NCBI GenBank assembly: GCA_018302785.1 | Contig: JAGVZF010000013.1 | Coordinates: 10,787 to 74,786, forward strand | Length of the DNA stretch: 64,000 nt | Source of the DNA: Candidatus Woesearchaeota archaeon | GTDB lineage: Archaea > Nanobdellota > Nanobdellia > SCGC-AAA011-G17 > JAGVZF01 | Direction of reading: 5' to 3' | Shown here: in pieces, positions 8,733 to 61,869 of the stretch | Numbering within the stretch: the first letter of the stretch is position 1 | Layout: every line of letters starts with the position of its first letter | Notes under the pieces: generated by a model | What the model saw: only the letters and a program-made list of their open reading frames with translations | What the model was told of the DNA's origin: nothing | The model's database searches: none | Translations under genes and position numbers: made by a program

Positions 8733-8735
8733 AAT

Positions 8736-9134: not shown

Positions 9135-9135
9135 A

Positions 9136-10230: not shown

Positions 10231-10620
10231 ATGACTGAGTTAGTTTACTGTGCTACACCATCGAGATTGAGTAATCTTACTGAAACAATTGTTGACTACG
10301 TTGCTAAAGAAGGTTACGCTCCCCTCCATCCCTTTTTGGCTATGCCATATAAATATTTTGAAGGGGGTATAGTTGGTAGAAACAAAACAATAGAGTATTG
10401 TTTTAGATTAGTAGACATTTGCCCTCACTTTTGGTTATTTGGAATATCGGAAGGTACACTTGAGGAATTAAGTCGTGCACAATCAAGTGACAAGATATTT
10501 AGATTTCCATTTTTGCATTTTGACCCAGAATGGAATGAGTTTTATCAGAATCTTGCCTCAAAGTATGGTGATCCATTAGCGAATCTATTTCCGATTCAGA
10601 GATTAACTAAGCAGAACTAG
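10231..10620 (+). CDS. Hypothetical protein, possibly with a nucleoside 2-deoxyribosyltransferase-like (DUF4406-like) fold
   Basis: LVYCATPSR...AKEGYAPLHPF and DICPHFWLFGISEGTLEELSRA resemble the iYiAGP / cD.v..l.gw..S.G...E pattern. Weak, from memory. Confidence 0.3.
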   Translation: MTELVYCATPSRLSNLTETIVDYVAKEGYAPLHPFLAMPYKYFEGGIVGRNKTIEYCFRLVDICPHFWLFGISEGTLEELSRAQSSDKIFRFPFLHFDPEWNEFYQNLASKYGDPLANLFPIQRLTKQN

Positions 10621-13000: not shown

Positions 13001-13053
13001 AAAGTAAGTCTAAGAAATAAGTTTAAAAATTTATTTCAATTACAATATTCATA
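13001..13053. promoter_or_regulatory. 53-bp divergent intergenic region shared by the nuclease gene and the PolB-like gene
   Basis: AT-rich, with the TATA-like element TTTAAAAATTTATTT. Position only. Confidence 0.35.
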
Positions 13054-15705
13054 ATGAAAACAGACTTTGTCACTTTATTTCAGCAACCATCATCAAAAAT
13101 TCAGAAACTTAAGGCAGGTATAGACGTAACAGTTTGGGAATATGATGAAACTACTGGAATTAGTAATCCACATGTTCGCAGATTAACTTTAGAACAAAGA
13201 GTTCCGACAAGTTTATCAAGAAATCCTGATTTACAAACTTTAACAGAATCTACTGAAAAATATAAAACTGCATTAATAGATATTTATAAAACTAAACTTG
13301 ATAGAATAAATGAACAAATCAAGTCTGCTCGACCTGGAACAAAGCTGAGAGCAAAACTTGACGAAGAAAAGATTATTATCGAAGAATTCTTATCCAACAT
13401 AAACAGATTAATAAGATTAGAAGGACCTTTTTCCAATGGAAATTATCAAGCTTTCCATTTAGTTTCACCATTTATTGAGCATCAGCTATCAGACATATTT
13501 TTATGTTCAGAGTTTGTAAAAAATAGATATTTAAATAATACACGTCAGACTGCCATCGCACTTAATTTTCCATTTGGCATTATTAATGAAAGTAATGAAC
13601 CTACAGGTGCAAGAATTTCATTAGAAACTTTATTAGAAGCAAAATCTCTGGCTATTGATTTCGAAACTCATAATTGGAGATCAATACAGATAAAAGATGA
13701 GCTTCGGAGAGAGCCTTTAGAATTATTAAGAAAAAGATTCTTAGAACTAGTTTCTCAACATAACATTTCCTTTGATTCAAGAAGATTAGAATGGATGGAT
13801 ATAGAAGACTATGTTAAAGAAATTTCAGATTTAATAAATTTAACTAAAGATGAAAGAATTACTGTTGCTGCACTTATTAACCTGAGAGACAATGAAAATT
13901 ATGTTGTTACAACTTTTAATCCAGATCATGATTCAATAATGGTCAGGATTCCTGGACGTATTGAGGACAGAGAAGTAAGAATTGTTAAGGCATCAAATCA
14001 GTTCTCTCTAATACAAAAAGTAAATAGATTAATTCAACAAATAAATCCCCTTTTTATGTATGGCCATAATCAGATGGGGTTTGATTACCAAACTGCAGAA
14101 AGACTTACGAGAAATTTTAGAGCCGGAGTTAATGAAAAAAAACCACTGCAAAAAGCACAAGCTGCAGCAGGATTTATCACTCAAAGAATTCTACCTGGTA
14201 GAATAGATATTGATCCTTCTTTATATGCATTAAATTACTTAGATTGTTATAATAATAGACTTGACACTGTTTTTGAGAATGTAATTGGAATAAAATCTGC
14301 CAAGTCTCTCACTCAAGAGCAATTAGAAATTAAAACCAGAAACGCAGAAGCTGGAAATCAACATGATATTGATGATGTATTGTCATATTCAGCTCAAGAT
14401 GCCATGAAGTCCTTTTTACTAGGAGAAAGATTAAAACTGGAACACCTAATTCTCAGCACAATTCACTATAGTTTACCAGCTAGAATTGATTCTACTGGTA
14501 GAAAAACAATAGGTGAGGATTATTGGGTGAACTGGTGGTATAAACATAAAAAAACATTTCCCTCAAGAGAAATAATTAAATCTGTTGCTACCATAACAAC
14601 TAATGGAGAAGATAGACAAGTAAGGTACGAAGAGTTTAGACCAATAGATATTTTACAAAGTGAACTTAAGAGAATACCTGTACAAAAAGGAATTCATGAA
14701 GGGAAGCTTATTGCAGTGTTTCCATTTGCAGATGCATTTAATCAATTACTCTCTAGAGATCCAAATGTTGATTCCTTATATAAAAGGTTACAAGAAACTA
14801 GTGACCCCAAAGAAAAAATTAGAATCTTGAAATCAATAGATTCTTTACTTGAATATCCATTATTTATGCTTCTTGATAAAGCTACATCTGAAACAAAATT
14901 TGCTGCTTCATTTATGCTTGGATTTTCAGGATTAGAAAAAGAGAAATACCTAAGAATTACAGATAAAAATCTAGAAATGATAATCCATTTAGCCCAACCA
15001 GCACAAATAATTAATAGTTGTAGAGAATATTTGGTGCTGCAACCATCAGTAGATTTACAAATTCTAAATCAACTAACACAAAGTAATATAGCAATATATT
15101 TAGGAGATGGAAGATTTTTGTCAGGGTCAAGAGGAAGATATGCAGGAATTATAAATGATGAATTTATAATGTTTGGTATAGCAGACTTCCATTCAAACAA
15201 GGGATTTAGATGTGACTTTGAACGAAATTTCTATGAGTATTTTTTAAGACAAACTCTAATTAGCGGTGATCCAAAATCTGCTTTACTTTACTTAGTAGGC
15301 AGAGCTAAACAACTATCTCAAGGAACTATAAGTCAAGATGAGTTAAAATTTGATAGAACTGCTAGAAGAGACCATACTGATTATTCGGCTCAGGCAAGAC
15401 AAAGTTACATTAGAGACATGGCAGAACAAAAAACCAAAAAAGGAGATATTGTAAGGCCAAGAAGGACAGTTCAAGAACTTCAATATAAATTCTTTGGTAT
15501 TACTCCTAAAGCAGAAGATCAATATGGTTTATTTGAGGATACTTCAACAATAACTGCAGAAACTACTAAAGTTGGGACCATTTCTGAAGTAGTAGAATGG
15601 TTATTTATACCTAAAACAATTAAGGAAGTAAGACCAATTTTGGAGAAATTATACCATGGCAAAGGTAGAGTAGAAGACGTTGATGCTATATTAAGCCACA
15701 CCTAG
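13054..15705 (+). CDS. Family-B DNA polymerase homolog with intact DEDDy 3'-5' exonuclease motifs but substituted polymerase catalytic motifs
   Basis: ExoI LAID(202)FE(204)T, ExoII GHN(339)QMGFD(344)Y, ExoIII Y(445)SAQD(449). The motif A position reads AVFPFADAFNQ (canonical lDFxSLYPS). Motif C reads IYLGDGRF (canonical YGDTDS). A downstream KGFRCDFERNFYEYFL resembles the PolB thumb-proximal region. Confidence 0.65.
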   Translation: MKTDFVTLFQQPSSKIQKLKAGIDVTVWEYDETTGISNPHVRRLTLEQRVPTSLSRNPDLQTLTESTEKYKTALIDIYKTKLDRINEQIKSARPGTKLRAKLDEEKIIIEEFLSNINRLIRLEGPFSNGNYQAFHLVSPFIEHQLSDIFLCSEFVKNRYLNNTRQTAIALNFPFGIINESNEPTGARISLETLLEAKSLAIDFETHNWRSIQIKDELRREPLELLRKRFLELVSQHNISFDSRRLEWMDIEDYVKEISDLINLTKDERITVAALINLRDNENYVVTTFNPDHDSIMVRIPGRIEDREVRIVKASNQFSLIQKVNRLIQQINPLFMYGHNQMGFDYQTAERLTRNFRAGVNEKKPLQKAQAAAGFITQRILPGRIDIDPSLYALNYLDCYNNRLDTVFENVIGIKSAKSLTQEQLEIKTRNAEAGNQHDIDDVLSYSAQDAMKSFLLGERLKLEHLILSTIHYSLPARIDSTGRKTIGEDYWVNWWYKHKKTFPSREIIKSVATITTNGEDRQVRYEEFRPIDILQSELKRIPVQKGIHEGKLIAVFPFADAFNQLLSRDPNVDSLYKRLQETSDPKEKIRILKSIDSLLEYPLFMLLDKATSETKFAASFMLGFSGLEKEKYLRITDKNLEMIIHLAQPAQIINSCREYLVLQPSVDLQILNQLTQSNIAIYLGDGRFLSGSRGRYAGIINDEFIMFGIADFHSNKGFRCDFERNFYEYFLRQTLISGDPKSALLYLVGRAKQLSQGTISQDELKFDRTARRDHTDYSAQARQSYIRDMAEQKTKKGDIVRPRRTVQELQYKFFGITPKAEDQYGLFEDTSTITAETTKVGTISEVVEWLFIPKTIKEVRPILEKLYHGKGRVEDVDAILSHT

Positions 15706-15780
15706 CCCAGCAATAATTTTATAATCTTTGCTGTAATCTAAATTGAATAGTAAATATAAAATGTATATACAAATACTAAA

Positions 15781-16788
15781 ATGACATCTATTCTAGGTAT
15801 TCAAACAGATGCGGAAGATGATGAAGTTGTTATGTTGGCCGCAGACACCCAAGTAACTCTATATTCGGGTCCTAATTATAGTGAAGAAAAAGATCCTTAC
15901 CCACAATCTAAGGTTAGGGAAGTAAATGAGTCTACAGTAATTGCAATGTGTGGCACTTACGACAGATATGTTGAAAATCTTTTCACTTATTTAAGGGATA
16001 AAGATTATAGAAAATTTCTGTCAACCTTACATGATAGAAAAACAATACCAGAATTGGATAATATCTCAAATCAACTAAGGTATTTGAAAAGAGACGTACG
16101 CAGGAGATTAAGAGAACTTCTAGAAAGTAGAAGTCAGCCTACATCAGAGTTGGAAGAATTTGTGATCCAATTAACAAAAGGTCAACCTGAAACTAAATCA
16201 GCACTAGATTTATTTATTACAGGCTTAATACAAAATATTCTAACACCCCCAGACCCTATACAAGAAGCACTTAGAAGCAGCGTATTCTATGAGGCTGCTG
16301 ATTTAAACAGACACTTCACAAGAAGAAATAGAGAAAAGGAAGAAGAAATTGGGTTAGATGACTATACAGAATTTGCAATCGCCACAAATTCTCCACTTGG
16401 GTTAAACACTGTAGATCTATTCGGTGGAATAAAGAAATTACAAATCGGATCTGGCGATATAGATTATATTAGTATGGGAAGTGGCTCTGAATTTTTGGAC
16501 CAATACTTAAGACAGGGTACTTATAGGGATGATCCAGAACTAAAAGAATATTCCCCAGAGTTTCACACAAATTTTAGAATTGATTCTATCTCATCTAGAT
16601 GCGCCTATGAACTTGCTTATGGAGCTATGATGTATGCAACAAAAAGAGATCAACATAGTGGTGGAGTTATTGAAATCGTGACACTTCGCCCAAATATTAT
16701 AATCCCCCATAAAGTTACGATCAAGAAAGCAATTCGTGAAGCAGAGAAGGCAGCTGTAAGATCTGAGGCGGCAAAATTGTCTTACTAA
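15781..16788 (+). CDS. Proteasome-beta/HslV-like Ntn-hydrolase without a propeptide and with an about-100-aa helical insertion
   Basis: MTSILGI..VVMLAADTQVT (Thr directly after Met, the aaDt motif), SKVREV..VIAMCGTYD (Lys33-like), YISMGSGSEFL (GSGS), and ATKRDQHSGGVIEIVTL. Confidence 0.6.
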   Translation: MTSILGIQTDAEDDEVVMLAADTQVTLYSGPNYSEEKDPYPQSKVREVNESTVIAMCGTYDRYVENLFTYLRDKDYRKFLSTLHDRKTIPELDNISNQLRYLKRDVRRRLRELLESRSQPTSELEEFVIQLTKGQPETKSALDLFITGLIQNILTPPDPIQEALRSSVFYEAADLNRHFTRRNREKEEEIGLDDYTEFAIATNSPLGLNTVDLFGGIKKLQIGSGDIDYISMGSGSEFLDQYLRQGTYRDDPELKEYSPEFHTNFRIDSISSRCAYELAYGAMMYATKRDQHSGGVIEIVTLRPNIIIPHKVTIKKAIREAEKAAVRSEAAKLSY

Positions 16789-18136: not shown

Positions 18137-19396
18137 ATGAACAACGACGACAAATACATAGATTTATTAGAATTTTTGCCACAAAATATTATATGTGGGA
18201 AATTAGAAAAACAATTCCCACTAAGTGTAAAATTAGATAATAAATATTTGTCTCTTTCATATATTACAAATTTGTCAAACCAAACTGGACAAGTTGGAGT
18301 TAAAGAATATTCTTTAACAATTCCAAGATTTCTTTTCAAAAATATTAGAACATTTGAAGTTATTGGATTGCTCCAAGCTGAAATGGGAAAAACTAACAAT
18401 GGAAATCTATCATTTGCAAATCATGAATACAAATTAATTAATTATGTTTTATATTGGTTTAAAAAAGAATTAGAATTTGATGTGAAAAATTGGAAATGGA
18501 GCATAAAACTAAATATGCAAGAACCTACTGACTTAAATTATAAACCCAAAATAGAGAACAAAGTAATAAAGCATTGGACGGAAAGAACTAAAATAACATT
18601 AGAACAATCTTATCCCAAAAAAGTAACTTATATCAGTAATACCAAAAATATCAAATTAAAAGATCATGATTATGGCACGCTGGTTTTAGAACATAAGAAT
18701 AATTTATTTAGTCAAATTATAAAGAATTTTGTAAAAATAATTACATATAGAGAAATAGTAAACTATGAAGCACAACTAATCCAGGGATATATGAAGGCTA
18801 TAATTGCTGGAGAAGGTTGTATAGAAATTTCAAAACAGGATAAAAAGTTTAGGGTACATATTTCGGCATCAAAAGAAGAAGAGAAAGAAATATTCTATCA
18901 ATGTCTAAGAAAGTTAGGGGTTGAAAGCATAAAATACAAGGGAGATAAATTAGTGATTTCAAAGCGTAAAAACAATGTCCAACTTCTTAAACAACGTTTA
19001 ATGACTTTATCTCCAGCAAAATACGCCAAATTTCTAAACATGATGCAACAATATCCAAACATCAAAGAAGAAACTGGCTACTTCAAAGAAAAAGGCAAAA
19101 ACGTTTGGAATAAAATTCCTCAAGAAATAATAGATAAAATTATTGAACTTTATAACTCTGGAATTACAAACACAAAAGAAATAGCAGAAAGATTAGGATT
19201 ACATATTCTAAAAGTTCAAAGAGTTCTCCAAATTAATAATTTAGGAAAAAGAATAACAACAATTCCAGAATCCAAAAGAATGGAAATTGCCAAATATGTT
19301 AAAGATCATCCCGAATTAAATCATGAACAAATTGCAAAACAATTTAATGTTAGTAAATCTGCAGTTAGTAGAGCTAACTTAAAGTATAATCTCTAA
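18137..19396 (+). CDS. Free-standing LAGLIDADG-like (double-motif) protein with two C-terminal HTH modules
   Basis: VIGLLQAEMGK and YMKAIIAGEGCIE (LAGLIDADG-type motifs with Glu). C-terminal ITNTKEIAERLGLHILKVQRVL and NHEQIAKQFNVSKSAVSRA. Confidence 0.6.
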   Translation: MNNDDKYIDLLEFLPQNIICGKLEKQFPLSVKLDNKYLSLSYITNLSNQTGQVGVKEYSLTIPRFLFKNIRTFEVIGLLQAEMGKTNNGNLSFANHEYKLINYVLYWFKKELEFDVKNWKWSIKLNMQEPTDLNYKPKIENKVIKHWTERTKITLEQSYPKKVTYISNTKNIKLKDHDYGTLVLEHKNNLFSQIIKNFVKIITYREIVNYEAQLIQGYMKAIIAGEGCIEISKQDKKFRVHISASKEEEKEIFYQCLRKLGVESIKYKGDKLVISKRKNNVQLLKQRLMTLSPAKYAKFLNMMQQYPNIKEETGYFKEKGKNVWNKIPQEIIDKIIELYNSGITNTKEIAERLGLHILKVQRVLQINNLGKRITTIPESKRMEIAKYVKDHPELNHEQIAKQFNVSKSAVSRANLKYNL

Positions 19397-21286: not shown

Positions 21287-21994
21287 ATGATGAAAAAAAT
21301 TTTAATTTTCTTAGCTTTAGTATTAATATTGCCTAATTTTGTTGCGGCAATTGAATCTGCAAGAATAGATGTAGATGGACTAAGCGATGTAATTCCAGAA
21401 GGTAGTGAACATACTGTAAATAACTTAACGGTTAAAGCTGTATGGATAACTGATTATCAAGGTATTGAATTTGATGTAGCAAATTTAAGAATCATTGAAG
21501 GCCCGCCTATAAATCAATGGCAGTTAAGGTCCGGCGATTCTATAACGGTTGAAGGTCATACTGTTTCTATGATTTGTGCTGCTCCAAATAATGCTGTAAG
21601 GATAGATGTAGATGGACTTACAGCAATTATAAGAGAAGGTCAAGAAATGAATATTAATGGATTATCAATTAAGGTTCTTAATATAGGTGATGATTCAGGT
21701 TGTGAGTTTGATTATGCTACATTTAGGATTATAGCAGGACCACCAGCTAATGAATATATAATGAGGGCCGGTGACTCAATAATAATTGCTGGTAGAACTT
21801 TAACTTTTGTTTCAGCTGCTGGAGGAAGTCAACCTGGTGGTACTAGTTCTCCGTCATTTATGAAAATTACGCCACCACAAGTTTTTGAATCACCCCAATC
21901 AAGTGTTCAATGGGTTGGAATAGTAATTAGCATAATTACATTAGCATTAGTTTTTCAACTTTATAGAAAACTTTCTAAGAAAAACAGAAAGTAA
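21287..21994 (+). CDS. Secreted surface protein with two about-95-aa internal repeats and a C-terminal SSPSFMK-TM-basic anchor module
   Basis: Signal peptide. Repeats ARIDVDGLSDVIPEGSEH...FDVANLRIIEGPP...RSGDSITVEGHTV and VRIDVDGLTAIIREGQEM...FDYATFRIIAGPP...RAGDSIIIAGRTL. C-terminus GGTSSPSFMKI...WVGIVISIITLALVFQLYRKLSKKNRK. Confidence 0.6.
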   Translation: MMKKILIFLALVLILPNFVAAIESARIDVDGLSDVIPEGSEHTVNNLTVKAVWITDYQGIEFDVANLRIIEGPPINQWQLRSGDSITVEGHTVSMICAAPNNAVRIDVDGLTAIIREGQEMNINGLSIKVLNIGDDSGCEFDYATFRIIAGPPANEYIMRAGDSIIIAGRTLTFVSAAGGSQPGGTSSPSFMKITPPQVFESPQSSVQWVGIVISIITLALVFQLYRKLSKKNRK

Positions 21995-24570: not shown

Positions 24571-24785
24571 TGATTCCAACAACAGAAGAGCTACTAGAGT
24601 TTATTAGTAAAAAAGAATTAGTAAATCTAACTATGATAGCTAAAAATTATGATATTAAAAATGCTACTGCTTCTGATATTGTTAATGATTTAGTCAAAAA
24701 AAAATTAGTGGAAATAAAACAGATTGGAGGATCAAAAATAGTTATTTTAAAAAAGAGGATTACCAATGAAAAGAGGTCAAATTAG
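24570..24785 (+). CDS. Small winged-helix (MarR/TrmB-like) DNA-binding protein
   Basis: LVNLTMIAKNYDIKNATASDIVNDLVKKKLVEIKQIGGSKIV. Confidence 0.5.
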   Translation: MIPTTEELLEFISKKELVNLTMIAKNYDIKNATASDIVNDLVKKKLVEIKQIGGSKIVILKKRITNEKRSN

Positions 24786-26760
24786 TATATTCATAATATT
24801 AGGAATTATTATAACAATTTTAATAGTAACAATAGTAATATTTAGAAATTCAATATTTAAAAATGAATTTGAAGTTCAATCAGAAAAATCTTTACAAGTT
24901 CCTGAGCAAATAAAACCAATTAAATCTTATATTGATTCATGTGTAGAATTAACAAGTAAAGAAGCAATAGATATTTTAGGATCACAAGGCGGTTATATTA
25001 ATATTCCAATAGACAGAGTTCCAAGAGGTCCATTTAATCAATTCTCTAATTCATTAGAAGTTGTTCCAAATAGCTTAGTTGCTTATTGGTTTTATGAAAC
25101 ATCTAATAATATTCAAAAAACTCAAATTCCATCATTACAATTTATGGAAAATGAAATAAGTAGATATGTAAATTTAAATTTAGATGAATGCCTAAAAGAA
25201 TTATTTTCATCAGAAGAATACACAAAGTATTCAATAAATTTTCAAGGAAGTCCTGAAACTCAAACTAGTATAAATACAAATTATGTAGAAGTAACTGTTA
25301 ATTATCCAGTAAATATTTATCTTAATGAAATAGGAAAATTAATAGAAACTCATTATGTAAAGTTAGACATTCCATTAGGAGAGTTATATGAAACTTCAAA
25401 TGAAATATTAAATAAAGAGTATAATGAAAATTTCTTTAGTAAAAAAACAATAGACATGCTTTCTGTTTATGAAGAAGTTCCATATTCTGGAATTTCTCTA
25501 GACTGTAATACTCCAACATGGTCAAAATCTCAAGTAATTAAAAATTTAAAAAACATAGTAAGCTTAAATATTGGAGCTACAAAATTAAAAGGATCTCAAT
25601 ATACTTTAAGTGATGAATCTCATAAATACTTTGAATTAGAAACTAGCACAAATAATAATCAAATAAATTCATTTTTCTTATATTCACAAAATTGGCCATT
25701 ATCTATAGAAATTTATCCATCAGAAAATGAAATATTATCAGCAGACCAAATTACAAGAGCAACTGGAAATAAAGCAACTGAAGTTCTTTCTAAGATTCTT
25801 TGTTTAAATACATATAATTTCATCTATGACATAAAATATCCAATTTTAATTTCACTTGAAAAAGATAATTACATATTTCAATATGGCTTACAAGTTATAA
25901 TAGATAATAATCAACCAAAAACAAATGAATTAGGAGATCTAGATCTTGATGAAGTTCCATTTGATATTTGTTCTAGAAAAGTTACTCCAATAACTGTAAA
26001 TGTTCTAGGGAAAAATGGAAATCAACTAAAACCAATAGAAGCAGAAGTATCATATCAATGCTTTGCAACATCTTGTTATATAGGTAAAACTCAGCTTGAT
26101 GAATTTAATGATTATAAATTAACAGCTTTATTTCCAGAATGCTTAAATGGTCAGGTAATAGCTGAAAATAAAGATTACTTTACAACAAAAGAAATTATAG
26201 ACTCTAATGAAGAAACTTCTGTTTCTGTAGTAATGAAGCAATATTATAATTTTAATTATGATATTAAAGTCATAGAAAAATCATCTGGATATATAAGAGA
26301 TCTAGCAGAAGATGAAGATGTAATGTTTGAATTTAAGAATTTAGATGAAGATTATACTTTATATTTATCAAAAGATGAAAATGATTTGAAATTAATAGAA
26401 GGAAACTATCAAATAAAATCATATTTATCTAAAAAAAGTGAAACTAAATTTAAAATAGATCAACAAGAAATTTCTAAATGCATAAAAATTCCTAGAGCAG
26501 GCATTCTAGGTTTATTCCTTAAAACAGAGAAATGTGCAACTTCAACAATAGAAGCAACAGAATTAGATGATGTAATTGTTGGAGGAATTGAAACAGAAAT
26601 TAAAATAGATCCATTAAAATCTAATAAAGATAAAGTATCATTATATACTGTATTTGATAAAATTCCAACTTCATATGATGATTTAAGCGAAATAGAAAAA
26701 AACATAGGAAGTAATTCACAAATTCCATCATATAAAAAGCCGGAGTTCCAAAATGAATAA
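24766..26760 (+). CDS. 664-aa extracellular protein with an archaeal class III (prepilin-type) signal peptide
   Basis: The N-terminus MKRGQISIFIILGIIITILIV fits the K/R-G|Q-x-S prepilin-peptidase pattern. The remainder has no recognisable domain. Confidence 0.5.
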   Translation: MKRGQISIFIILGIIITILIVTIVIFRNSIFKNEFEVQSEKSLQVPEQIKPIKSYIDSCVELTSKEAIDILGSQGGYINIPIDRVPRGPFNQFSNSLEVVPNSLVAYWFYETSNNIQKTQIPSLQFMENEISRYVNLNLDECLKELFSSEEYTKYSINFQGSPETQTSINTNYVEVTVNYPVNIYLNEIGKLIETHYVKLDIPLGELYETSNEILNKEYNENFFSKKTIDMLSVYEEVPYSGISLDCNTPTWSKSQVIKNLKNIVSLNIGATKLKGSQYTLSDESHKYFELETSTNNNQINSFFLYSQNWPLSIEIYPSENEILSADQITRATGNKATEVLSKILCLNTYNFIYDIKYPILISLEKDNYIFQYGLQVIIDNNQPKTNELGDLDLDEVPFDICSRKVTPITVNVLGKNGNQLKPIEAEVSYQCFATSCYIGKTQLDEFNDYKLTALFPECLNGQVIAENKDYFTTKEIIDSNEETSVSVVMKQYYNFNYDIKVIEKSSGYIRDLAEDEDVMFEFKNLDEDYTLYLSKDENDLKLIEGNYQIKSYLSKKSETKFKIDQQEISKCIKIPRAGILGLFLKTEKCATSTIEATELDDVIVGGIETEIKIDPLKSNKDKVSLYTVFDKIPTSYDDLSEIEKNIGSNSQIPSYKKPEFQNE

Positions 26761-27742
26761 ACAATTAATTTCATTACTAATGATTGTACTTTTTGTTAGT
26801 TTACCATTTGCTGTAGCTCAAGAAAGAGAAGATCTTGGGGAAGTAATTAATATTAATGTTAATACTTATCAACCAGCAGTAGTTCCATCTAATATTTTGG
26901 CAGAGCAAGATGTTCCAGTCTATGCATATCTAGAAGGAACTACATTAGGATCTTTACTTTTACAAAATAATGCTGTAAACATTCCTCCATTGTATAAACT
27001 ACCAAAAATATCAAAAATAAACATTGCAATAAAAGATCCTAGTAATTATGTAATTTCTGTTCAAGCTAAACCACCATATAAAAAAATTTATGCAAGAGAT
27101 AATAATTCAGTAGACTTAGGTTATTTAATTGTAAGACTAAGAAAAATAAAAAAAGAAAATGAAGTTCCAGATGTTATTAATGTAAATTTAACAGCAAAAA
27201 TAAACTTTGAATTAGATGAAGGTTTTAGTATATTTGGGACTCAAGATTTACTTTTAAGAGAATCAAATGATGAAAATAACTGGAAATCTACTAGAACTGA
27301 AGAATCTGCATTTTGGAATAAAAAAGGATATGTAAGAGCTTATAATATTAAAAGTGGAAAAGCAAGCTTTGAAGTTTATGATGGTTCATTTGATAGTTTA
27401 ACAACATTAAATGACAAAACATCTGATTTTGTTTCAAACTCAATTAGATTTAAAACAGGAGAGTTTGAAGATTCAAATTTACTAGATGATAGATTTAGAT
27501 TGAAAGTGCAAAGAATTTCAGTTCCAGAACCAAAAGCAAATTTAAGAATTATTGATTCCTCTGGAAAAATCTCTGATAAAACAGTAACAAAAGGGATGTC
27601 TATATTAGAAGGAAGTTCATATAGAGTAAAAGAAATAAGACCAAGAAGACCAACAGATAAAGGTCAACTAGAAGAAATTATAATTCAAAAAGGAAATGAT
27701 AAACAAATTTATCTAAGAACTTTATATCAATCCGGTAATTGA
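26753..27742 (+). CDS. Secreted protein (Sec signal, AVA-Q), unknown domain; probably the N-terminal part of a longer frameshifted gene
   Basis: MNKQLISLLMIVLFVSLPFAVAQE. The ORF end overlaps the open frame carrying the lytic-transglycosylase domain. Confidence 0.5.
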   Translation: MNKQLISLLMIVLFVSLPFAVAQEREDLGEVININVNTYQPAVVPSNILAEQDVPVYAYLEGTTLGSLLLQNNAVNIPPLYKLPKISKINIAIKDPSNYVISVQAKPPYKKIYARDNNSVDLGYLIVRLRKIKKENEVPDVINVNLTAKINFELDEGFSIFGTQDLLLRESNDENNWKSTRTEESAFWNKKGYVRAYNIKSGKASFEVYDGSFDSLTTLNDKTSDFVSNSIRFKTGEFEDSNLLDDRFRLKVQRISVPEPKANLRIIDSSGKISDKTVTKGMSILEGSSYRVKEIRPRRPTDKGQLEEIIIQKGNDKQIYLRTLYQSGN

Positions 27743-28175
27743 TGTAGAATCTGGAGGAGATTCTAAAGCAGTTTCATGCACAGGTCCAGCTGGTCTTATG
27801 CAACTAAGTATAGATGCTGCAAATGATGTTAGAACTTCATTAGGCTCAGAATCAGAATATCCAAAAATTCAACATTATCAATTAAATGGACAAGGAAATC
27901 CAATATGCAGCTGCAGTTATTCCAAAGATTGTAGAGATGAGTCTATCGACTGGAGATTTAATAAGGATAAAAATGTTAAAGCAGGAACTCAATATTTACT
28001 TAAATTAATCAACAAATATAATAAAGATTTAAGGCTTGCATTATTGGCATATAATGCTGGTCCTGGTTCAGTAGACCAAGTCTGTCAAACTCCACCTACA
28101 AATATTAAAGAAATAAATTTTGATTATGATTCCTGCAAAAATAACAATATGTGCAAAAAATCTTTAATAAATTAA
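27717..28175 (+). CDS. Lytic transglycosylase (SLT) domain segment in a shifted frame, with no start codon upstream of the catalytic Glu
   Basis: The open frame from 27717 reads ELYINPVIDVESGGDSKAVSCTGPAGLMQL...LLAYNAGPGSV (E-S, GLMQ and AYNAG motifs). The first ATG (27798) lies after the catalytic ES. Confidence 0.6.
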   Translation, partial: ELYINPVIDVESGGDSKAVSCTGPAGLMQLSIDAANDVRTSLGSESEYPKIQHYQLNGQGNPICSCSYSKDCRDESIDWRFNKDKNVKAGTQYLLKLINKYNKDLRLALLAYNAGPGSVDQVCQTPPTNIKEINFDYDSCKNNNMCKKSLIN

Positions 28176-31100
28176 AAGAGCAAACAGGAATAGAATTAGA
28201 TATTACAAAACCAGTATATTTAGATCAAACTACAGTTACAGTATCAACAGAAACGCAAGTAGGATCTCAAAATCCTTGCACTAACGCAAAAATACTTAGT
28301 GATAAAGAAATAGAAGAAACCTCAAGTTATATTGATTTATATTGTACTGCAATAAATGAATTAAAGTCTTTAATTGATAATTATCCAGAATCTCCATTAA
28401 TTTCTTCTTCATATGAATTAATAGCAGATATTTATTTTAATTATCTAAAAAACAAATTATTAGCAAGAGACAACTATGAACTCGCTTTGTTAACAGCTAA
28501 TAGCTTACAAAAAGACTCAATAGAAGTAAAATTAAAAGATTTAAATAAAGCTATTGGAGAAAGCATAGAATATGGTCATGCATTATTAGATGATGAAGCA
28601 CTTGAAGTTTCACTATTAAGAGTAATTCCTAAAGAAGATAATGCAGAAGCAACATTAAGAATTGATTCAACAACAACTAATAAGAAAGTAAATGACCCTT
28701 TATTTGATGGAATTGGAACAGATAATAAAGGAAATTATAGAGTACATCTTATAGAAATACAATCTGATTTTATAAGAATTATAAAAACATATAGTAAAGA
28801 AGATAATAATGGTAAAGAAAATTTACCAGATCCTCAGAGATATACAATAACATTAAACAATAGACTGGAATTAGTTGAAGACAAATCAATAAATAAATTT
28901 CGCTTAATAGAATTACTTGGAACAGATACAAAAGAAGAAGCAATAGTAACTATTTTGCCAGGATCTGGAAAAGAAACAAGTACATCTGATTTCTCTTTAC
29001 ATATTCCAATTGAAAAAAGAGCTATAAGATTTACCCCAGAAGAAATAGATAATAAAATTGCAAGAACTAAAAGATTAATAGACAAGCTTGATTCAGTAAT
29101 TTCTAAATTAGAAAAGACATTAAAAGTGTGGAAAGCAACTTGCCTAATAACAATGGCAGTTTTGACAGTTAAAAATTCATTCTTCAATCCAATTAAGAAC
29201 CTAGCAAGAAGAACAGTCATGAGAGGTCCTGATGGTCAAAGCGGTTGGAATCAAATTTGCAGTGATAGACTCAGAACTGAACTTGATCCAAAAACTGGTA
29301 GGCCACGATTTAGAACTATTGATGAATGTATTGAGGCTAATGCTGATGAAATTGAACAGGAGATTTCTAACACAGAAAATGTTATCAAAAGAACAGAAAC
29401 TCTTGTCAAAAGCCTTGGAAATATTAAAGAAACTTCATCACAAGCTAAGTTATCAGAATTAATAGGAAATGATTTATCACAAGAACAAATTCAAAGGCTT
29501 AATGAAATCGGTAGACTAGGAAATGATGAGGCAAGAAATCTAATTTTGTTAAAGAATTCCAATCTAGACTCACCTCAACAAGCAGAATATAATAAAAAAA
29601 TCGAAGAGTACAAAAAAGAAGCAGATTTAGAAATTGGAATTCAGCAGAAACTTCAAAGTACAACTTATGAAGGTGAGGATAAACTTAGACTAGAATTATC
29701 TTTAAGGAAATCATTACCAGCTACAATAAAAGCTAGGGAATTATATGAATCAACCTCAGATATAGTAAAAAATTACATTACTGAAAATAATTTGGAAGAT
29801 AAAGACTTTAAACCAATATTCTTAGTTTATCCAGAGGAAAATCAGCCAGGGAATCTTACACCACAAGAACAAAAATTCAGCACATTCTATGATGAAAAAA
29901 AAGAAACCAATCTTAAAAGACTCTTTATTGGAAATACTCAGGCAGCCTTAAACGGTCAAGAGATTTATATTCAAACAGACAATAGAGGAAATATTATTAA
30001 TTACTATGTTTCAAGTGGTGGAGTATCAGATGATTCAAGATGTCCAAAATCTTTAGTTTACAGTGGAAGTCCAAGTGTTATTTATGATGATAAAGGTAAG
30101 CCATTAATAATCCCAATACAAACCCCTCAACTAGATAGTAACTATGCAGATTATGTAATATTTGGTTATGATCTAGACACTAAATTGCCAAATCAATATA
30201 GTATATTTAATGTTGGTCTTGATCAAATTATTTCTGAATTAAATAGAAATACAAGTGATGATTGTGTTGTAGAAAATAAAGAAAGCTTTGATGATAAAAC
30301 TCAGACTTCAAAAATAGTATCTCAAGCTTATAATGAAGCATTAAAAGGTTATCAAACAGTTCAAGAAAAAGGAATTAGCTCAAAAGTAAAAATACTTGGA
30401 AAAGAATACTTTGTTAATTATGCATCAAATAGAGTTGATGAGTTACTAAATCCACAATGCACAGATGTATTTAGCATTTCAGATTGCCATATTATGTTTG
30501 GTATTTGTGATCCAGTAATTTGTCCTACTTCAAGATTTGACTTTGGTAATACATGGAAAGTTGACAATGTTGTTCAAACTGGAATCGTTGGAAGTGTTTT
30601 ACTAGGAATTAAAAATTTAGCTCCATATGAACCAGTTCCTGTATGTTTAACTGGAGTTTTAGCAGGCCTCCAGAATATAAAATCTATATTAGAAGGCTTA
30701 AATGAATGTCTTCAAACAGCAAAAGTCAAAGGAGAATATGTAGGAATTTGTGATGCAATAACATCTATTTATATTTGTGAAACTGTTTGGAGGGAAGGTC
30801 TTGCATTATATAGATTAAAAGGAAAAGTAATAAACTGGATGAGTAAAGATATATTACATCAAGATCCTGATGGTGGAGAATATCTTACATTTAAGAATTC
30901 CTTAAAAAATGTTGAAGATAGTGCAAAATTCCTTACAAAAGACTATGCGCAAAATACATTTAAGGATTATGCTGGAAAGAGTTTCGATGAAGTTGGTTCT
31001 GTAATTTGCAGACAAGCAATTTATTCAAGCACTCCAGGAGTAGGCAAATTCCTAGATCAAGTCCTTCAACCAGAAAGCCCTCCTCAATTTACTGCAATAT

Positions 31101-33223: not shown

Positions 33224-33224
33224 A

Positions 33225-33962
33225 ATGCAATACAAAAATATCTTTAAGATAGTAAAAATAACGTTTTTTGATATCTTATTTATATCAGTTATGATAGAAA
33301 TTTTAATATTCTCTAGAATAAGGTTAAAAAATTATATAGAAAAATTTAATGAAGTAATCCTAAATTTAAATATTCTCCAACCACAAATTCAAAATCAAGA
33401 TCTACAAGCAATAACACAAGTAGAACAAATTGTAAATAATATAAATAATCTCACAAATAAAGCTATCCTAGAATTAATTTTAATTTTTATATTTGTTTAC
33501 TTAATATATAGTATAATTTATTCTTTTAAATGGAAAATTATTATTAAGAAAATATCTTTTAAAACTGAATTTGTTAAAATTTTAATAGTTTCATTACCAA
33601 TTTTTATATTATTATTATTAACAATATTTCTATATATAATGAATCTTAATTTATTATTTTCTATAATTCCATTAATTATTATTTTATTTATTATTCTTAT
33701 TATTTATTCAACAAATAAATCTTTAAAAGAATCTTTAAAACATCTTAAACATATTATAAAAAATAAATTTAATCTACTAATCTCAAACTTTATGTTAATA
33801 TCAATGTTTATTATAATCTCAATATTTCTATTTTCACTAATATTTTCAAAAATTTATACTAAAATATATTCAGACATGTTAATTGATGTAATAATGTTGA
33901 TTTTTACATTATTTATTATAAATATATTAAAAATTTGGCTTTCTAAAATAACAAATGAATAA
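33225..33962 (+). CDS. Polytopic membrane protein, extremely Ile/Leu/Asn-rich
   Basis: ORF track. Starts 2 nt after the giant ORF's stop. Confidence 0.4.
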   Translation: MQYKNIFKIVKITFFDILFISVMIEILIFSRIRLKNYIEKFNEVILNLNILQPQIQNQDLQAITQVEQIVNNINNLTNKAILELILIFIFVYLIYSIIYSFKWKIIIKKISFKTEFVKILIVSLPIFILLLLTIFLYIMNLNLLFSIIPLIIILFIILIIYSTNKSLKESLKHLKHIIKNKFNLLISNFMLISMFIIISIFLFSLIFSKIYTKIYSDMLIDVIMLIFTLFIINILKIWLSKITNE

Positions 33963-52330: not shown

Positions 52331-52363
52331 AATAAAATAAAAAAGAATTGTTTGTTTTTAAAT

Positions 52364-54094
52364 CTATCTTCTTCTTTTATTGTTTATCCTATTTCTATTA
52401 ATTCTATAAGCACTAAAGTTTCTATAGATTACAAATATTAAAATCATCGCAATAGCTGCTATAACTATAACTGTCCAATCATTACCTTTTGGAGATAGTC
52501 CTATAGTTTCTTGTCTAGTAGGTTTTAAGAATAATGGAGAACTACCTCCACCTCCACCTCCACAAGGTACTATTACTGCATTTTGCCAATTTCCTGCTCC
52601 AGCAATTTGTCCAGTTTGGAATCTACCCTCAACATAACCGCCGTTCACATAAATATTATTATTATCATTGTTGCAAACTCTATAACCTTCTAGAAGTCTA
52701 GCTCCAGTATCTACATATACACCATTTTCATTAGTATCACTTAATATATTTGAAGCTACAGAAAAGCCTTGTAATTGAATGCCATAATCACCTTGAGCTT
52801 CTCCATTGTATCTTGCAATTGAATTTGTTAACTGTGTAGAGTCAAATAATTTGTATCCATGAAAATGATTAGATAATGCTATGCTTTGATTTACAGAGGC
52901 GTTATTATACATTTCAAAACCATTATTATGGTTAATTGCTATACCATTCGTAAGTTGACTATTACCGGAAATATGAAATCCAGCACGTCCATTATTTCTT
53001 GCTGTAACCCCACTAGCCCTGGAATTATGTTGTAAGACGAATCCTATCATATTAATGTTACCGTCGCCACCATTGTTTGTCGCAATACTATCTTCAACAC
53101 TAGACCAACCTTGCTGCCAAAATCCCCAATAATCATTATTATTAGAAGTTGAACCACTTACTGAAGCATTATCATATAAAATAAACCCATCCTCTTCATT
53201 ACGAACTGCAGAGCTATCTTCAACCTTGGAATCGGTAAACATTTTAAAACCCCAGTCGTAGTTAGAGAGCGCTAGTGACGAAAAGACTTTTGCACTATCC
53301 TCTAAGTAAAATCCATTGTCTATATTTCCCCATGATTCACACTCTATACATTGGCTAGTATCCCACATAAAAAACCCGTTTGCTCCATTTTCATATGAAT
53401 GACTATTTAATACCCTTCCATTTTCCTGCACAACAAATCCAGAAACTCCATTGTTATTAGAAAAGCTTGATTCAACAAAGGATCCTTCACGAACATTAAA
53501 TCCCTCGTATCTATTATCTTGTGCTCTGCTCCCAAAAATATAAGTTGAATATGGTCCTTGAGCTGTATAGAAACCTTGGGAGTTATTTTCAGCAATACTA
53601 TCTAAAACTGTTGTATTATCATATAGCATGAAACCTATTCCTGCATTTACTACTTTGCAATTTTTTACAGTAGCTTCATCAAAGAGTCTTATCGCAAAGT
53701 TGCCATGATTTCCTCTTATTTTATGATTATTACATGTGAAATAAAATCCATCGCTTCCATCAGCTACATTAATGGAATAAGGAAAATAAATATCTTCTGT
53801 CAGCTCTACACACCCGCTTGCATATATGAAGGAAACACCACCTGTCTGTCCGTTAAAAAAAGCCTGATTTAGCTCGATACAACCTTCTCTTGGCATTGCC
53901 TGTTTTAACTTAAAGCCGCTAGGACTTTCTCTAGCAATTTGTAGATTAGGTTTAGTTAGTCTTTGTTCACTCATTTCAATATTCTTTAATCTATTAGTTG
54001 TTAAATCATCAATATTACTAGTAGCCAATACGACTGGAATAGAAATGCTTACTGAAATCAATACTAAGATTAATAATAGACTTCTCAAACTCAT
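52364..54094 (-). CDS. Secreted right-handed parallel beta-helix repeat protein with a C-terminal SSPLFLK-TM-basic anchor module
   Basis: Signal peptide. Repetitive NNxGxGFxxxxxS segments about 22 aa long. C-terminus GGGGGGSSPLFLKPTRQETIGLSPKGNDWTVIVIAAIAMILIFVIYRNF...KRRR. Confidence 0.6.
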   Translation of the reverse strand: MSLRSLLLILVLISVSISIPVVLATSNIDDLTTNRLKNIEMSEQRLTKPNLQIARESPSGFKLKQAMPREGCIELNQAFFNGQTGGVSFIYASGCVELTEDIYFPYSINVADGSDGFYFTCNNHKIRGNHGNFAIRLFDEATVKNCKVVNAGIGFMLYDNTTVLDSIAENNSQGFYTAQGPYSTYIFGSRAQDNRYEGFNVREGSFVESSFSNNNGVSGFVVQENGRVLNSHSYENGANGFFMWDTSQCIECESWGNIDNGFYLEDSAKVFSSLALSNYDWGFKMFTDSKVEDSSAVRNEEDGFILYDNASVSGSTSNNNDYWGFWQQGWSSVEDSIATNNGGDGNINMIGFVLQHNSRASGVTARNNGRAGFHISGNSQLTNGIAINHNNGFEMYNNASVNQSIALSNHFHGYKLFDSTQLTNSIARYNGEAQGDYGIQLQGFSVASNILSDTNENGVYVDTGARLLEGYRVCNNDNNNIYVNGGYVEGRFQTGQIAGAGNWQNAVIVPCGGGGGGSSPLFLKPTRQETIGLSPKGNDWTVIVIAAIAMILIFVIYRNFSAYRINRNRINNKRRR

Positions 54095-59229: not shown

Positions 59230-59799
59230 TTATCTTCTTCTTTTATGTTTATTTTGCTTAATAGAATCAAAATTATTATAAATTAAATATAACATTACTA
59301 ATGCAACTATTATATAAATTAAGAATAACCAGTCTGTGCTTTCAGTAGGGGACTTATCAATATTTTGAACTATAGCAATTTTCATAAAAGAAGGAGAACT
59401 AGTCCCACTACCACTTACTGTGATATTTATAGAAGCAGTATTATTAAAGTAAAAAGGATCTAAAGCGCCATCTGTTGGATAAGAAAAAACTCTAAATCCA
59501 TGCAAACCAGCAACACTAGGAATAAAATTAAATGACCTTGGTATTCTCTGACCAGGATTAATCAAAACACAACAACCACTACCCCCAGTTCCTCCCCTTG
59601 GAGTACTAATTTCATTACCAAAAGATACTCTTACAGTATCAGGTCCACTATTTGCTATCACATAATTTACTGTAATTAATTCTCCAATTCTTGGATTAGT
59701 TGGATTTACAATAAATGATTCAATTCCAATATCAGCACTTGCTGCAAATACAAAACTACTAAGAATCACAAAAGTCAACAAGTAAATTAATTCTTTCAA
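59230..59799 (-). CDS. Secreted CARDB-like domain protein with a C-terminal SSPSFMK-TM-basic anchor module
   Basis: Signal. IESFIVNPTNPRIGELITVNYVIANSGPDTV. C-terminus GSGTSSPSFMKIAIVQNIDKSPTESTDWLFLIYIIVALVMLYLIYNNF...KHKRRR. Confidence 0.6.
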   Translation of the reverse strand: MKELIYLLTFVILSSFVFAASADIGIESFIVNPTNPRIGELITVNYVIANSGPDTVRVSFGNEISTPRGGTGGSGCCVLINPGQRIPRSFNFIPSVAGLHGFRVFSYPTDGALDPFYFNNTASINITVSGSGTSSPSFMKIAIVQNIDKSPTESTDWLFLIYIIVALVMLYLIYNNFDSIKQNKHKRRR

Positions 59800-60311: not shown

Positions 60312-60323
60312 TTTAAATCCTCC

Positions 60324-61169: not shown

Positions 61170-61171
61170 AT

Positions 61172-61847: not shown

Positions 61848-61869
61848 TTTTAATAAAAAAATAAAAAAT

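What the first reader, a model, noticed from the sequence alone, without database searches (positions are those of the whole stretch)
21835..21994. Shared C-terminal tripartite module SSP[SL]F[ML]K - SPx(4-5)W - TM - basic tail on three unrelated surface proteins: candidate new sorting/anchoring signal
Three secreted proteins with different passenger domains end the same way.

- Two-repeat protein (21287-21994): GGTSSPSFMKITPPQVFESPQSSVQWVGIVISIITLALVFQLYRKLSKKNRK.
- CARDB-like protein (59230-59799, module at about 59233-59420): GSGTSSPSFMKIAIVQNIDKSPTESTDWLFLIYIIVALVMLYLIYNNFDSIKQNKHKRRR.
- Beta-helix protein (52364-54094, module at about 52367-52570): GGGGSSPLFLKPTRQETIGLSPKGNDWTVIVIAAIAMILIFVIYRNFSAYRINRNRINNKRRR.

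The Gly-rich linker, signature motif, TM helix and Arg/Lys tail recall sortase, archaeosortase and exosortase substrates (LPXTG, PGF-CTERM, PEP-CTERM). The motif and its 15-20-residue spacing from the helix match none of those I know.
Basis: seen in the sequence. Interest (0 to 1): 0.7.

Follow-up and report, generated by a model that had tools for sequence, protein, structure and literature searches.

The report
Woesearchaeal shared C-terminal membrane-anchor module
Three secreted proteins of an uncultured groundwater Woesearchaeota (DPANN) archaeon really do share a conserved, previously undescribed C-terminal tail, but it is confined to one narrow clade and looks more like a reusable permanent membrane anchor than a proven new sortase-type sorting signal.

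Summary
Three signal-peptide proteins (21287-21994 +, 52364-54094 -, 59230-59799 -) end in a Gly linker, SSP[SL]F[ML]K, a 13-16-residue stalk with SP, an 18-residue W...Y helix, [YF][RN]N[FI] and a K/R tail. SSPxFxK is expected 0.014 times in the window proteome and occurs 3 times.

The tails are homologous and under purifying selection (pN/pS about 0.2-0.5). They are not recent copies and match no Pfam or NCBIfam CTERM model.

An exhaustive HMMER scan of 1.84 billion representatives found only 8 members. All come from close relatives of this Candidatus Woesearchaeota MAG. They sit on four unrelated passenger families: CARDB-like, two-repeat beta, parallel beta-helix, and P0007-type.

The tail behaves as a constant cassette. 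Upstream of carbamate kinase it stays fixed while the passenger is swapped between relatives. A 91-aa passenger-less remnant lacking SSPxFxK is still under purifying selection.

No sortase, exosortase or rhomboid gene lies in about 82 kb of the source contig. The motif sits about 15 residues from the helix, unlike known signals.

Best reading: a lineage-specific retained stop-transfer anchor with a conserved juxtamembrane recognition motif. Enzymatic sorting is not excluded and not tested.

The parts
21287..21994 (+). Two-repeat beta-domain surface protein (235 aa) with a signal peptide (about 21287-21349). AF2 shows two beta domains, a disordered linker and stalk (res 180-211), and a C-terminal helix.
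   Evidence: orthologs P0005/P0022, paralog P0008/P0019
21836..21991 (+). Module copy A: GGT linker; motif 1 SSPSFMK 21845-21865; stalk 21866-21910 with SP at 21890-21895; 18-aa W...Y helix 21911-21964; cytoplasmic tail RKLSKKNRK 21965-21991.
52364..54094 (-). Right-handed parallel beta-helix surface protein (576 aa), immediately upstream of carbamate kinase (51422-52330).
   Evidence: pLDDT >90 over res 70-500; Foldseek matches to polysaccharide lyases, epimerases and tailspikes
52367..52555 (-). Module copy C: G6 linker; motif 1 SSPLFLK 52523-52543; stalk 52478-52522 with SP at 52490-52495; W...Y helix 52424-52477; cytoplasmic tail RNFSAYRINRNRINNKRRR 52367-52423.
59230..59799 (-). CARDB-like (sub-threshold) surface protein, 189 aa. 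It is identical to NCBI MBS3149514.1 (J4455_02355, Candidatus Woesearchaeota archaeon).
59233..59412 (-). Module copy B: SGSGT linker; motif 1 SSPSFMK 59380-59400; stalk 59332-59379 with SP at 59347-59352; W...Y helix 59278-59331; cytoplasmic tail NNFDSIKQNKHKRRR 59233-59277.
52331..52363 (-). 33-nt intergenic region (ATTTAAAAACAAACAATTCTTTTTTATTTTATT) between module copy C and arcC. It is conserved with the tail in all relatives and looks like a TATA-type promoter. That reading is inference.
   Evidence: alignment A3

Best explanation
The module is a lineage-specific, reusable C-terminal membrane-anchor cassette of a narrow clade of groundwater Woesearchaeota.

Proposed mechanism:
1. The N-terminal Sec signal peptide exports the passenger.
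2. The fixed-length 18-residue W...Y helix acts as a stop-transfer anchor.
3. The [YF][RN]N[FI] boundary and the 9-19-residue K/R-rich tail stay in the cytoplasm (positive-inside rule).
4. The passenger is left tethered by a disordered Gly-rich linker and a roughly 15-residue Ser/Pro stalk.

The invariant [GS]SPx[FVY]xK element is held at a constant distance from the membrane. It is most likely a juxtamembrane recognition site for a partner, such as a modifying enzyme, a sheddase or an envelope scaffold. The anchor itself is retained rather than discarded.

The cassette spreads and is homogenised among surface-protein genes by recombination. Passenger domains are exchanged in front of a constant tail.

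Shown: homology of the tails, purifying selection, narrow distribution, passenger swapping, gene conversion, and a disordered stalk followed by a helix.
Inferred: topology, retention of the anchor, and the existence of a partner for motif 1.
For: Reality of the module:
- Three copies in the window against 0.014 expected.
- The tails align over their full length. The helix has no indels, and G, SSP, K, S, W and Y are conserved.

Selection acts on the peptide:
- Motif codons differ at synonymous sites.
- Tail pN/pS is 0.07/0.31, 0.20/0.61 and 0.29/0.60, and tail pN is lower than passenger pN (0.175, 0.395, 0.45).
- Tails are more conserved than passengers in orthologs: 84 vs 70 %, 78 vs 60 %, 66 vs 43 %.

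Cassette behaviour:
- The gene upstream of arcC keeps the tail ...LIFxxYRNFSAYRINRNRxNxKRRR. Its passenger is a beta-helix in the window and L057, two-repeat in L059/L060, P0007-type in L048, or absent in L001-3 and L065-67.
- In one sample, the two-repeat gene (L055) and the CARDB-like gene (L056) share near-identical DNA across linker, SSPSFMK and stalk, but not across the helix. This is a gene-conversion tract.

Retention of the anchor:
- The cytoplasmic tail is conserved at the peptide level across passenger swaps, and most nucleotide differences are synonymous.
- The 91-aa remnant (P0001 vs P0009) lacks both passenger and motif 1 yet has pN 0.046 against pS 0.225.
- A distant beta-helix homolog, P0025, stops right after the conserved ...LPC. 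It carries an N-terminal TM anchor instead, so the module substitutes for another way of anchoring.

Structure:
- AF2 gives pLDDT <50 for linker, motif and stalk, followed by one long helix, in two different proteins.

No processing enzyme nearby:
- No sortase, exosortase or rhomboid family appears among the window's membrane proteins or in the flanks.
- The 7-TM ORF 33225-33962 has no Cys.
Against: - An invariant short motif at a fixed distance from the membrane, preceded by a flexible linker and shared by unrelated passengers, is exactly what an enzyme recognition site looks like. A plain anchor does not need it.
- Retention of the anchor is inferred from conservation, not observed.
- The strong tail conservation and the remnant belong to the arcC-locus subtype only. 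There the 3' end also abuts a conserved promoter-like region, although synonymous divergence in the tail is not depressed.
- Only about 10 % of the genome could be inspected for enzymes.
- No function is demonstrated for motif 1.
Confidence: 0.55

Rival explanations
1. It is a true protein-sorting signal. A dedicated, still unidentified sortase-, archaeosortase-, rhombosortase- or sheddase-like enzyme recognises SSPxFxK (or SP...W), removes the helix and basic tail, and either transfers the passenger to a lipid or envelope polymer or releases it.
For: - The layout is motif, TM helix, then basic tail, after a Gly-rich linker.
- The motif is invariant across paralogs that are otherwise 30-45 % identical.
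- The Lys-to-helix distance is constant at 13-16 residues although the stalk sequence varies.
- It occurs on four unrelated passenger families.
- The stalk is disordered and therefore accessible.
- It matches no known CTERM model, so it would be a new class.
Against: - In every characterised system (LPXTG, PEP-, PGF-, PEF-, GlyGly-CTERM) the signature directly abuts the helix. This rests on established knowledge (Haft 2006, 2012; review PMC6098224). Here it lies about 15 residues away.
- No candidate enzyme is found in about 82 kb of the source contig or in relatives' contigs.
- The cytoplasmic tail is long (up to 19 aa) and sequence-conserved.
- The remnant without motif 1 is under purifying selection.
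- Only 8 clusters exist among 1.84 billion representatives, and only 3 real loci among 241 million JGI records. That is far narrower than any known sorting system.
Confidence: 0.27
2. The similarity mainly reflects DNA-level processes: recent gene conversion among paralogs and constraint from the arcC promoter embedded at the 3' end. On this view the conserved peptide motifs have no function of their own.
For: - There is a gene-conversion tract between L055 and L056.
- The last ~90 nt of the ORF, the intergenic region and the arcC start are near-identical in five relatives, including L048, whose arcC protein is only 63 % identical.
- The intergenic sequence is also retained upstream of an inserted LAGLIDADG gene.
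Against: - The three window tails are only 36-40 % identical and diverge in DNA outside motif 1.
- Differences in conserved stretches fall mainly at synonymous positions, and pN/pS is well below 1.
- pS in the tail half of the remnant (0.31) is not lower than in its N-terminal half (0.14).
- Tails at two other loci, far from arcC, keep the same motifs.
Confidence: 0.1
3. It is a chance or low-complexity resemblance of generic Ser/Pro-rich stalks and TM anchors.
For: Ser/Pro/Gly-rich stalks, aromatic belts and basic tails are generic features of type I membrane proteins.
Against: - Shuffles give 0.014 expected against 3 observed.
- Profile hits reach E 1e-14 to 1e-32 against 1.84 billion proteins.
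- The tails can be aligned consistently over their full length.
Confidence: 0.02

Closest known systems
Archaeosortase substrates: PGF-CTERM (ArtA), PEF-CTERM (ArtC), Loki-CTERM and related C-terminal sorting domains
   Same: - Archaeal Sec substrates with a flexible Ser/Thr/Gly-rich linker, a short signature, one TM helix and a basic C-terminus.
- Several unrelated passengers per genome share the tail.
   Different: - The signature is not adjacent to the helix. It lies 13-16 residues upstream.
- The residues next to the helix are [DNQS]W, not P-G/E-F.
- HMM matches are sub-threshold and cover only the helix: PEF-CTERM 13.7 bits against a cut-off of 23, profile positions 8-22 of 25; Loki-CTERM 13 bits against 19.9.
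- The cytoplasmic tail is longer and sequence-conserved.
- No archaeosortase gene was seen.
- Distribution is limited to one narrow clade.
Sortase LPXTG and exosortase PEP-CTERM cell-surface sorting signals (bacteria)
   Same: Tripartite logic of motif, hydrophobic helix and positively charged tail. One tail is shared by many passenger types and shuffled among surface-protein genes.
   Different: - There is no LPXTG or PEP motif.
- The motif-to-helix spacing differs.
- The host is an archaeon.
- No sortase (PF04203) or exosortase (PF09721) was found in the inspected DNA.
Permanent C-terminal TM anchors of archaeal envelope proteins (for example Sulfolobus SlaB, reviewed in PMC6098224)
   Same: A signal peptide plus a single C-terminal TM helix that stays in the membrane and tethers an extracellular domain through a stalk. 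No processing enzyme is needed.
   Different: Such anchors are not known to carry an invariant short motif at a fixed distance from the membrane. They are also not known to be shared as a homologous cassette by unrelated passengers.
Juxtamembrane ectodomain-shedding sites of type I membrane proteins (eukaryotic sheddase substrates)
   Same: A recognition or cleavage region in a disordered stalk about 10-20 residues from the membrane. Distance from the bilayer is the conserved parameter, and the TM helix with its cytoplasmic tail is retained as a stub.
   Different: This is only a functional analogy. No archaeal sheddase is known for this motif, and there is no evidence of cleavage.

Membership tests
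Archaeosortase-type CTERM sorting domains (PGF-/PEF-/Loki-CTERM etc.) | Match to a curated CTERM profile at or above its cut-off | tested here: not met
   NCBIfam and Pfam scans of the full proteins and of 13 isolated tails at E<=10. The only matches were 13-14-bit, helix-only alignments to PEF-CTERM and Loki-CTERM, below their cut-offs of 23 and 19.9.
Archaeosortase-type CTERM sorting domains (PGF-/PEF-/Loki-CTERM etc.) | Signature motif directly abutting the N-terminal end of the TM helix | tested here: not met
   The Lys of [GS]SPx[FVY]xK lies 13-16 residues before the helix in all 13 tails. The helix-proximal residues are variable apart from W.
Archaeosortase-type CTERM sorting domains (PGF-/PEF-/Loki-CTERM etc.) | Single TM helix followed by a basic cluster at the extreme C-terminus of a Sec or Tat substrate | tested here: met
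   An 18-residue W...Y helix is followed by 9-19 residues with 5-8 K/R and 0-1 D/E. N-terminal hydrophobic leaders are present. AF2 predicts a helix.
Archaeosortase-type CTERM sorting domains (PGF-/PEF-/Loki-CTERM etc.) | Co-occurring archaeosortase or exosortase-family gene in the same genome | tested here: inconclusive
   None was found among the window's multi-TM ORFs, in window coordinates -8.2 kb to +73.7 kb of the 110-kb source contig, or in relatives' contigs.
Sortase / LPXTG | LPXTG-like pentapeptide before the helix, plus a sortase (PF04203) gene | tested here: not met
   The tails contain no LPXTG-like motif. No sortase family was found in any scanned protein or precomputed Pfam list.
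Rhombosortase / GlyGly-CTERM | Gly-Gly motif at the start of the C-terminal helix, plus a rhomboid-family gene | tested here: not met
   The Gly run lies more than 20 residues upstream of the helix. There is no NCBIfam GlyGly-CTERM match and no rhomboid Pfam hit in the inspected DNA.
Type I (stop-transfer) membrane-anchored surface protein | Cleavable N-terminal signal peptide, one C-terminal hydrophobic helix of TM length, and net positive cytoplasmic flank | tested here: met
   The actual topology and retention of the helix cannot be tested in silico.

The most novel reading that the evidence does not exclude
The module is the recognition signal of a new protein-sorting or processing system in DPANN archaea. 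A still unidentified membrane enzyme would read SSPxFxK at a fixed distance of about 15 residues from the bilayer. It would then cleave, cross-link or lipid/glycan-modify surface adhesins and polysaccharide-active beta-helix proteins that these episymbionts may use to contact hosts.
Probability: 0.2. Interest if true: 0.65.

Novelty: new variant of a known kind. Interest (0 to 1): 0.35.

Why it matters
DPANN archaea depend on contact with host cells, and almost nothing is known about how they display surface proteins. This module marks a small set of fast-evolving surface proteins in one Woesearchaeota clade: CARDB-like proteins, a polysaccharide-lyase-like beta-helix, and others.

It also shows that these genes diversify by swapping passenger domains in front of a constant anchor. 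If the motif proves to be an enzyme recognition site, it would define a new archaeal sorting class.

If it does not, it remains a useful sequence tag for finding surface proteins in this lineage, and an example of cassette-style surface variation in archaea. Because the distribution is very narrow, the general impact is modest either way.

Tried and rejected
Searches that gave little or nothing:
- **Word-indexed protein searches** with the tail profiles returned only the 91-aa remnants. They missed the window's own proteins, which are in the collection. I treated this as a blind spot of that tool and relied on the exhaustive scan.
- **GTDB genome scan** with the tail pattern gave 27 pattern matches, none confirmed.
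- **44 PyrG-flank loci** from other Woese-, Pace- and Nanoarchaeota (about 0.7 Mb) contained no module. The weak hits in L027 and L005 are antisense spurious ORFs.
- **JGI metagenome scan** gave 63 pattern matches, of which only 3 are real loci. L063 is a high-GC chance match.
- **Viral contigs:** none.
- **Foldseek** of the two-repeat model against the PDB gave nothing significant.
- **Literature:** no paper mentions 'pacearchaeosortase', and none describes this motif.

Candidate enzymes rejected:
- The 7-TM ORF 33225-33962 has no Pfam or NCBIfam hit and no Cys.
- The HGSNAT/DUF1624 acyltransferase 58519-59229 abuts the CARDB-like gene, but the adjacency is not conserved in L059/L060.

Ideas rejected or blocked:
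- A GPI-omega-site-like reading was considered and dropped. Pro follows the small residues, and a charged cytoplasmic tail is present.
- There is no N-glycosylation sequon in the stalk.

Full report
**Observation**

- 21287-21994 (+), 235 aa
- 52364-54094 (-), 576 aa
- 59230-59799 (-), 189 aa

A six-frame regex for S[ST]Px[hydrophobic]x[KR] finds the motif in real genes only in these three tails, each 49-59 residues before the stop codon. Residue shuffles of the 63 window ORFs give 0.014 expected occurrences of SSPxFxK, against 3 observed.

Each protein has an N-terminal hydrophobic leader and a single C-terminal hydrophobic segment. They are the only window ORFs that passed my screen for an N-terminal leader, a terminal TM segment and a basic end. 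That screen recovered two of them; the CARDB-like protein was missed for a technical reason.

**Organism**

The window has 28.6 % GC and one tRNA. It carries archaeal informational genes.

The CARDB-like and two-repeat proteins are identical to NCBI proteins MBS3149514.1 and MBS3149477.1 of a Candidatus Woesearchaeota archaeon MAG, locus tags J4455_*. The closest PyrG in the GTDB species representatives is 74 % identical and belongs to Woese-/Pacearchaeota MAGs.

The same contig occurs in several groundwater assemblies (ENA, JGI, Logan) at up to 110-118 kb.

**Anatomy of the module**

I compared 13 non-redundant tails, taken from the window and its relatives. Their layout is:
1. A Gly-rich linker.
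2. Motif 1, [GS]SP[SLI][FVY][MLA]K.
3. A stalk of 13-16 residues (mode 15). It varies in sequence but usually contains SP (SQ in two members).
4. An 18-residue hydrophobic segment without any indel, bounded by W (absent in the CARDB2 subtype) and Y/F.
5. A cytoplasmic-boundary motif, [YF][RN]N[FI].
6. A tail of 9-19 residues with 5-8 Lys/Arg and almost no acidic residues.

AlphaFold2 models were made for the two-repeat protein and the beta-helix protein. Both give well-folded passengers, pLDDT below 50 for linker, motif 1 and stalk, and then one long helix. Motif 1 is therefore not part of any passenger fold.

The beta-helix model has pLDDT above 90 over residues 70-500. It matches polysaccharide lyases, epimerases and phage tailspikes. 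The two-repeat fold has no significant PDB match.

**Not a recent duplication or a DNA artefact**

The window tails are 36-40 % identical to each other. They diverge in DNA outside motif 1, and the motif codons differ at synonymous positions.

| Ortholog pair | Tail pN/pS | Passenger pN | Tail vs passenger identity |
|---|---|---|---|
| two-repeat | 0.07/0.31 | 0.175 | 84 vs 70 % |
| beta-helix | 0.20/0.61 | 0.395 | 66 vs 43 % |
| CARDB-like | 0.29/0.60 | 0.45 | 47 vs 43 % |

A closer beta-helix ortholog (P0003) gives identities of 78 vs 60 %; no pN/pS was computed for it. The tail is under purifying selection at the peptide level.

**Distribution**

No Pfam or NCBIfam model matches the tails. 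This includes all curated CTERM sorting domains, scanned at E<=10. When every tail was scanned separately, the only CTERM-related results were two alignments:
- PEF-CTERM at 13.7 bits, against a cut-off of 23
- Loki-CTERM at 13 bits, against a cut-off of 19.9

Both cover only the helix positions of the profiles, not the signature positions.

An exhaustive HMMER search with the three-tail profile covered 1.84 billion representative proteins. It found 11 hits at E<=0.001, of which 8 are real:
- the window's CARDB-like protein itself
- two beta-helix orthologs
- a two-repeat ortholog
- a second CARDB-like protein
- a new 225-aa passenger (P0007)
- a two-repeat paralog carrying the beta-helix-type tail (P0008)
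- a 91-aa remnant (P0009)

Local profile searches of the fetched contigs added two more groups. One is a second CARDB-like subtype with GSP[LI]FLK or SSPIFAK. The other is a P0007-like protein (L064).

Other scans were negative or nearly so:
- A scan of 241 million JGI metagenome records yielded only three real loci.
- GTDB representatives gave none.
- Viral contigs gave none.
- About 0.7 Mb of PyrG-flanking DNA from other Woese-, Pace- and Nanoarchaeota gave none.

Genomes that carry the module share 85-88 % identity in PyrG or carbamate kinase. One locus, L048, is more distant at 63 %.

The family is therefore real but tiny, with about 3-5 proteins per genome in one narrow clade. The three-sequence profile missed the CARDB2-type tail, so more divergent variants elsewhere cannot be excluded.

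**Passengers and cassette behaviour**

BLASTP of the passengers alone defines four mutually unrelated families: CARDB-like (two related subtypes), two-repeat, beta-helix and P0007-type.

The tail and the passenger do not co-evolve as a unit. The gene immediately upstream of carbamate kinase (arcC) always ends in ...LIFxxYRNFSAYRINRNRxNxKRRR. Its passenger varies between relatives:

| Locus | Passenger at the arcC-upstream slot |
|---|---|
| window, L057 | beta-helix |
| L059/L060 | two-repeat |
| L048 | P0007-type |
| L001-3, L065-67 | 91-aa remnant (N-terminal TM segment only) |

In a DNA alignment, the last ~90 nt of the ORF, the 33-nt intergenic region (with a TTTAAAAA TATA-like box) and the arcC start are almost identical in all five lineages. 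The differences inside the ORF fall mostly at synonymous positions.

In one sample, the two-repeat and CARDB-like genes share near-identical DNA over linker, SSPSFMK and stalk, but not over the helix. This is a gene-conversion tract.

A distant beta-helix homolog from a 44 %-GC archaeon (P0025) stops just after the conserved ...LPC. It carries an N-terminal TM segment instead of the module.

Together these results show a constant anchor cassette in front of which passengers are exchanged.

**Mechanism**

Sortase-type processing would make the helix and tail disposable. Four observations argue that they are not:
1. The cytoplasmic tail is long and conserved in sequence across passenger swaps.
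2. The helix has a strictly fixed length, with conserved aromatic and RN boundary residues.
3. The 91-aa remnant lacks motif 1 and any passenger, yet it shows pN 0.046 against pS 0.225 between two populations. It is therefore maintained by selection.
4. Synonymous divergence is not depressed in the tail half of the remnant (0.31 against 0.14). The conservation is therefore not simply promoter overlap.

In addition, motif 1 lies about 15 residues from the helix. In LPXTG, PEP-, PGF-, PEF- and GlyGly-CTERM signals the signature abuts the helix (established knowledge; reviewed in PMC6098224).

No sortase, exosortase/archaeosortase, rhomboid or CPBP family was found in any of the following:
- the window's membrane proteins
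- other window ORFs
- window coordinates -8.2 kb to +73.7 kb of the source contig
- relatives' contigs

The only unannotated 7-TM ORF (33225-33962) contains no cysteine.

Against this, an invariant motif held at a fixed distance from the membrane on a disordered stalk strongly suggests recognition by something. Only about a tenth of the genome could be examined.

My estimates are:
- 0.55: a retained stop-transfer anchor cassette whose juxtamembrane motif is a docking, modification or shedding site.
- About 0.27: a genuine cleaved sorting signal served by an unidentified enzyme.
- About 0.1: mainly recombination and DNA-level constraint.
- About 0.02: chance.

**Comparison with known systems, and novelty**

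The module works like the C-terminal anchors and sorting signals of archaeal and bacterial surface proteins. It is not a member of any defined CTERM family. The profile test and the motif-adjacent-to-helix test were both run and not met. The co-occurring-enzyme test is inconclusive.

I classify it as a new variant of a known kind: a C-terminal anchoring module. Interest is moderate to low because the clade is narrow and no enzyme is in sight. The passenger-swapping behaviour in a DPANN archaeon is the most informative by-product.

Noticed in passing
window 52331-54094 (-); L057 2703-4331; L059 10001-10741; L048 319-996; L001 482-757; L065 2076-2351: The slot immediately upstream of carbamate kinase is a hot spot for passenger replacement. 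The 3' tail, the 33-nt intergenic region with a TTTAAAAA box, and the arcC start are near-identical in DNA across relatives. The passenger is a beta-helix, two-repeat, P0007-type, or reduced to a 91-aa two-TM remnant that is still under purifying selection. In L065/L066 a LAGLIDADG-type gene is inserted behind the same intergenic sequence.
   Followed up: yes
L055 10520-10705 and L056 10376-10561 (same sample, SRR22388314): About 60 nt encoding GGTSSPSFMKIxPAQVFESP are nearly identical between two unrelated genes of one population, while the TM-coding DNA has diverged. This is a gene-conversion tract centred on the motif.
   Followed up: partly
L070 412-2319 (P0025, NCBI GCA_053529855.1, 44 % GC): A distant homolog of the beta-helix passenger (32 % identity) has an N-terminal TM anchor and ends just after the conserved ...LPC. 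It lacks the C-terminal module altogether.
   Followed up: partly
window 24766-33962 (+): A gene cluster of unknown function. It contains a 664-aa protein with an N-terminal TM, a 329-aa secreted protein, a 125-aa SLT lytic-transglycosylase-domain protein (Pfam E 1.4e-10), a 1690-aa giant protein, and a 245-aa 7-TM protein without Cys or any family match. An SLT domain in a DPANN archaeon may point to action on bacterial peptidoglycan.
   Followed up: no
window 58519-59229 (+): An HGSNAT_cat/DUF1624 transmembrane acyltransferase (Pfam E 1e-68) ends exactly where the CARDB-like module gene ends (convergent, no gap). The adjacency is not conserved in the relative L059/L060.
   Followed up: partly
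window 39494-43417 (+); 57591-58409 (-); 18137-19396 (+): The ribonucleotide reductase is interrupted by an intein with a LAGLIDADG domain. Two further free-standing genes are present: one LAGLIDADG/HNH-like and one LAGLIDADG-like with HTH. The region appears rich in homing endonucleases.
   Followed up: no
window 59889-62709 (-), 6802-7983 (+), 8142-9462 (+): Envelope thiol-redox and metal genes surround the module genes. They include a DsbA-like thioredoxin, thioredoxin-like proteins, a cupredoxin lipoprotein, a glutaredoxin fused to a SfLAP/DsbD-like membrane domain, and small Cys-rich membrane proteins. HMA/P-type ATPase and VKOR genes lie just outside the window (L068, L069).
   Followed up: no
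window 10607-16788: Three large cytoplasmic ORFs (797, 883 and 335 aa) have only sub-threshold hits: the DNA polymerase B exonuclease domain at E 9e-4 and a proteasome subunit at E 6e-4. Their function is unknown.
   Followed up: no
tool behaviour, versus 30 and 36: The word-indexed protein search did not return the window's own tail-bearing proteins or their orthologs, although exact look-up shows they are in the collection. Negative results from that tool should not be read as absence.
   Followed up: partly
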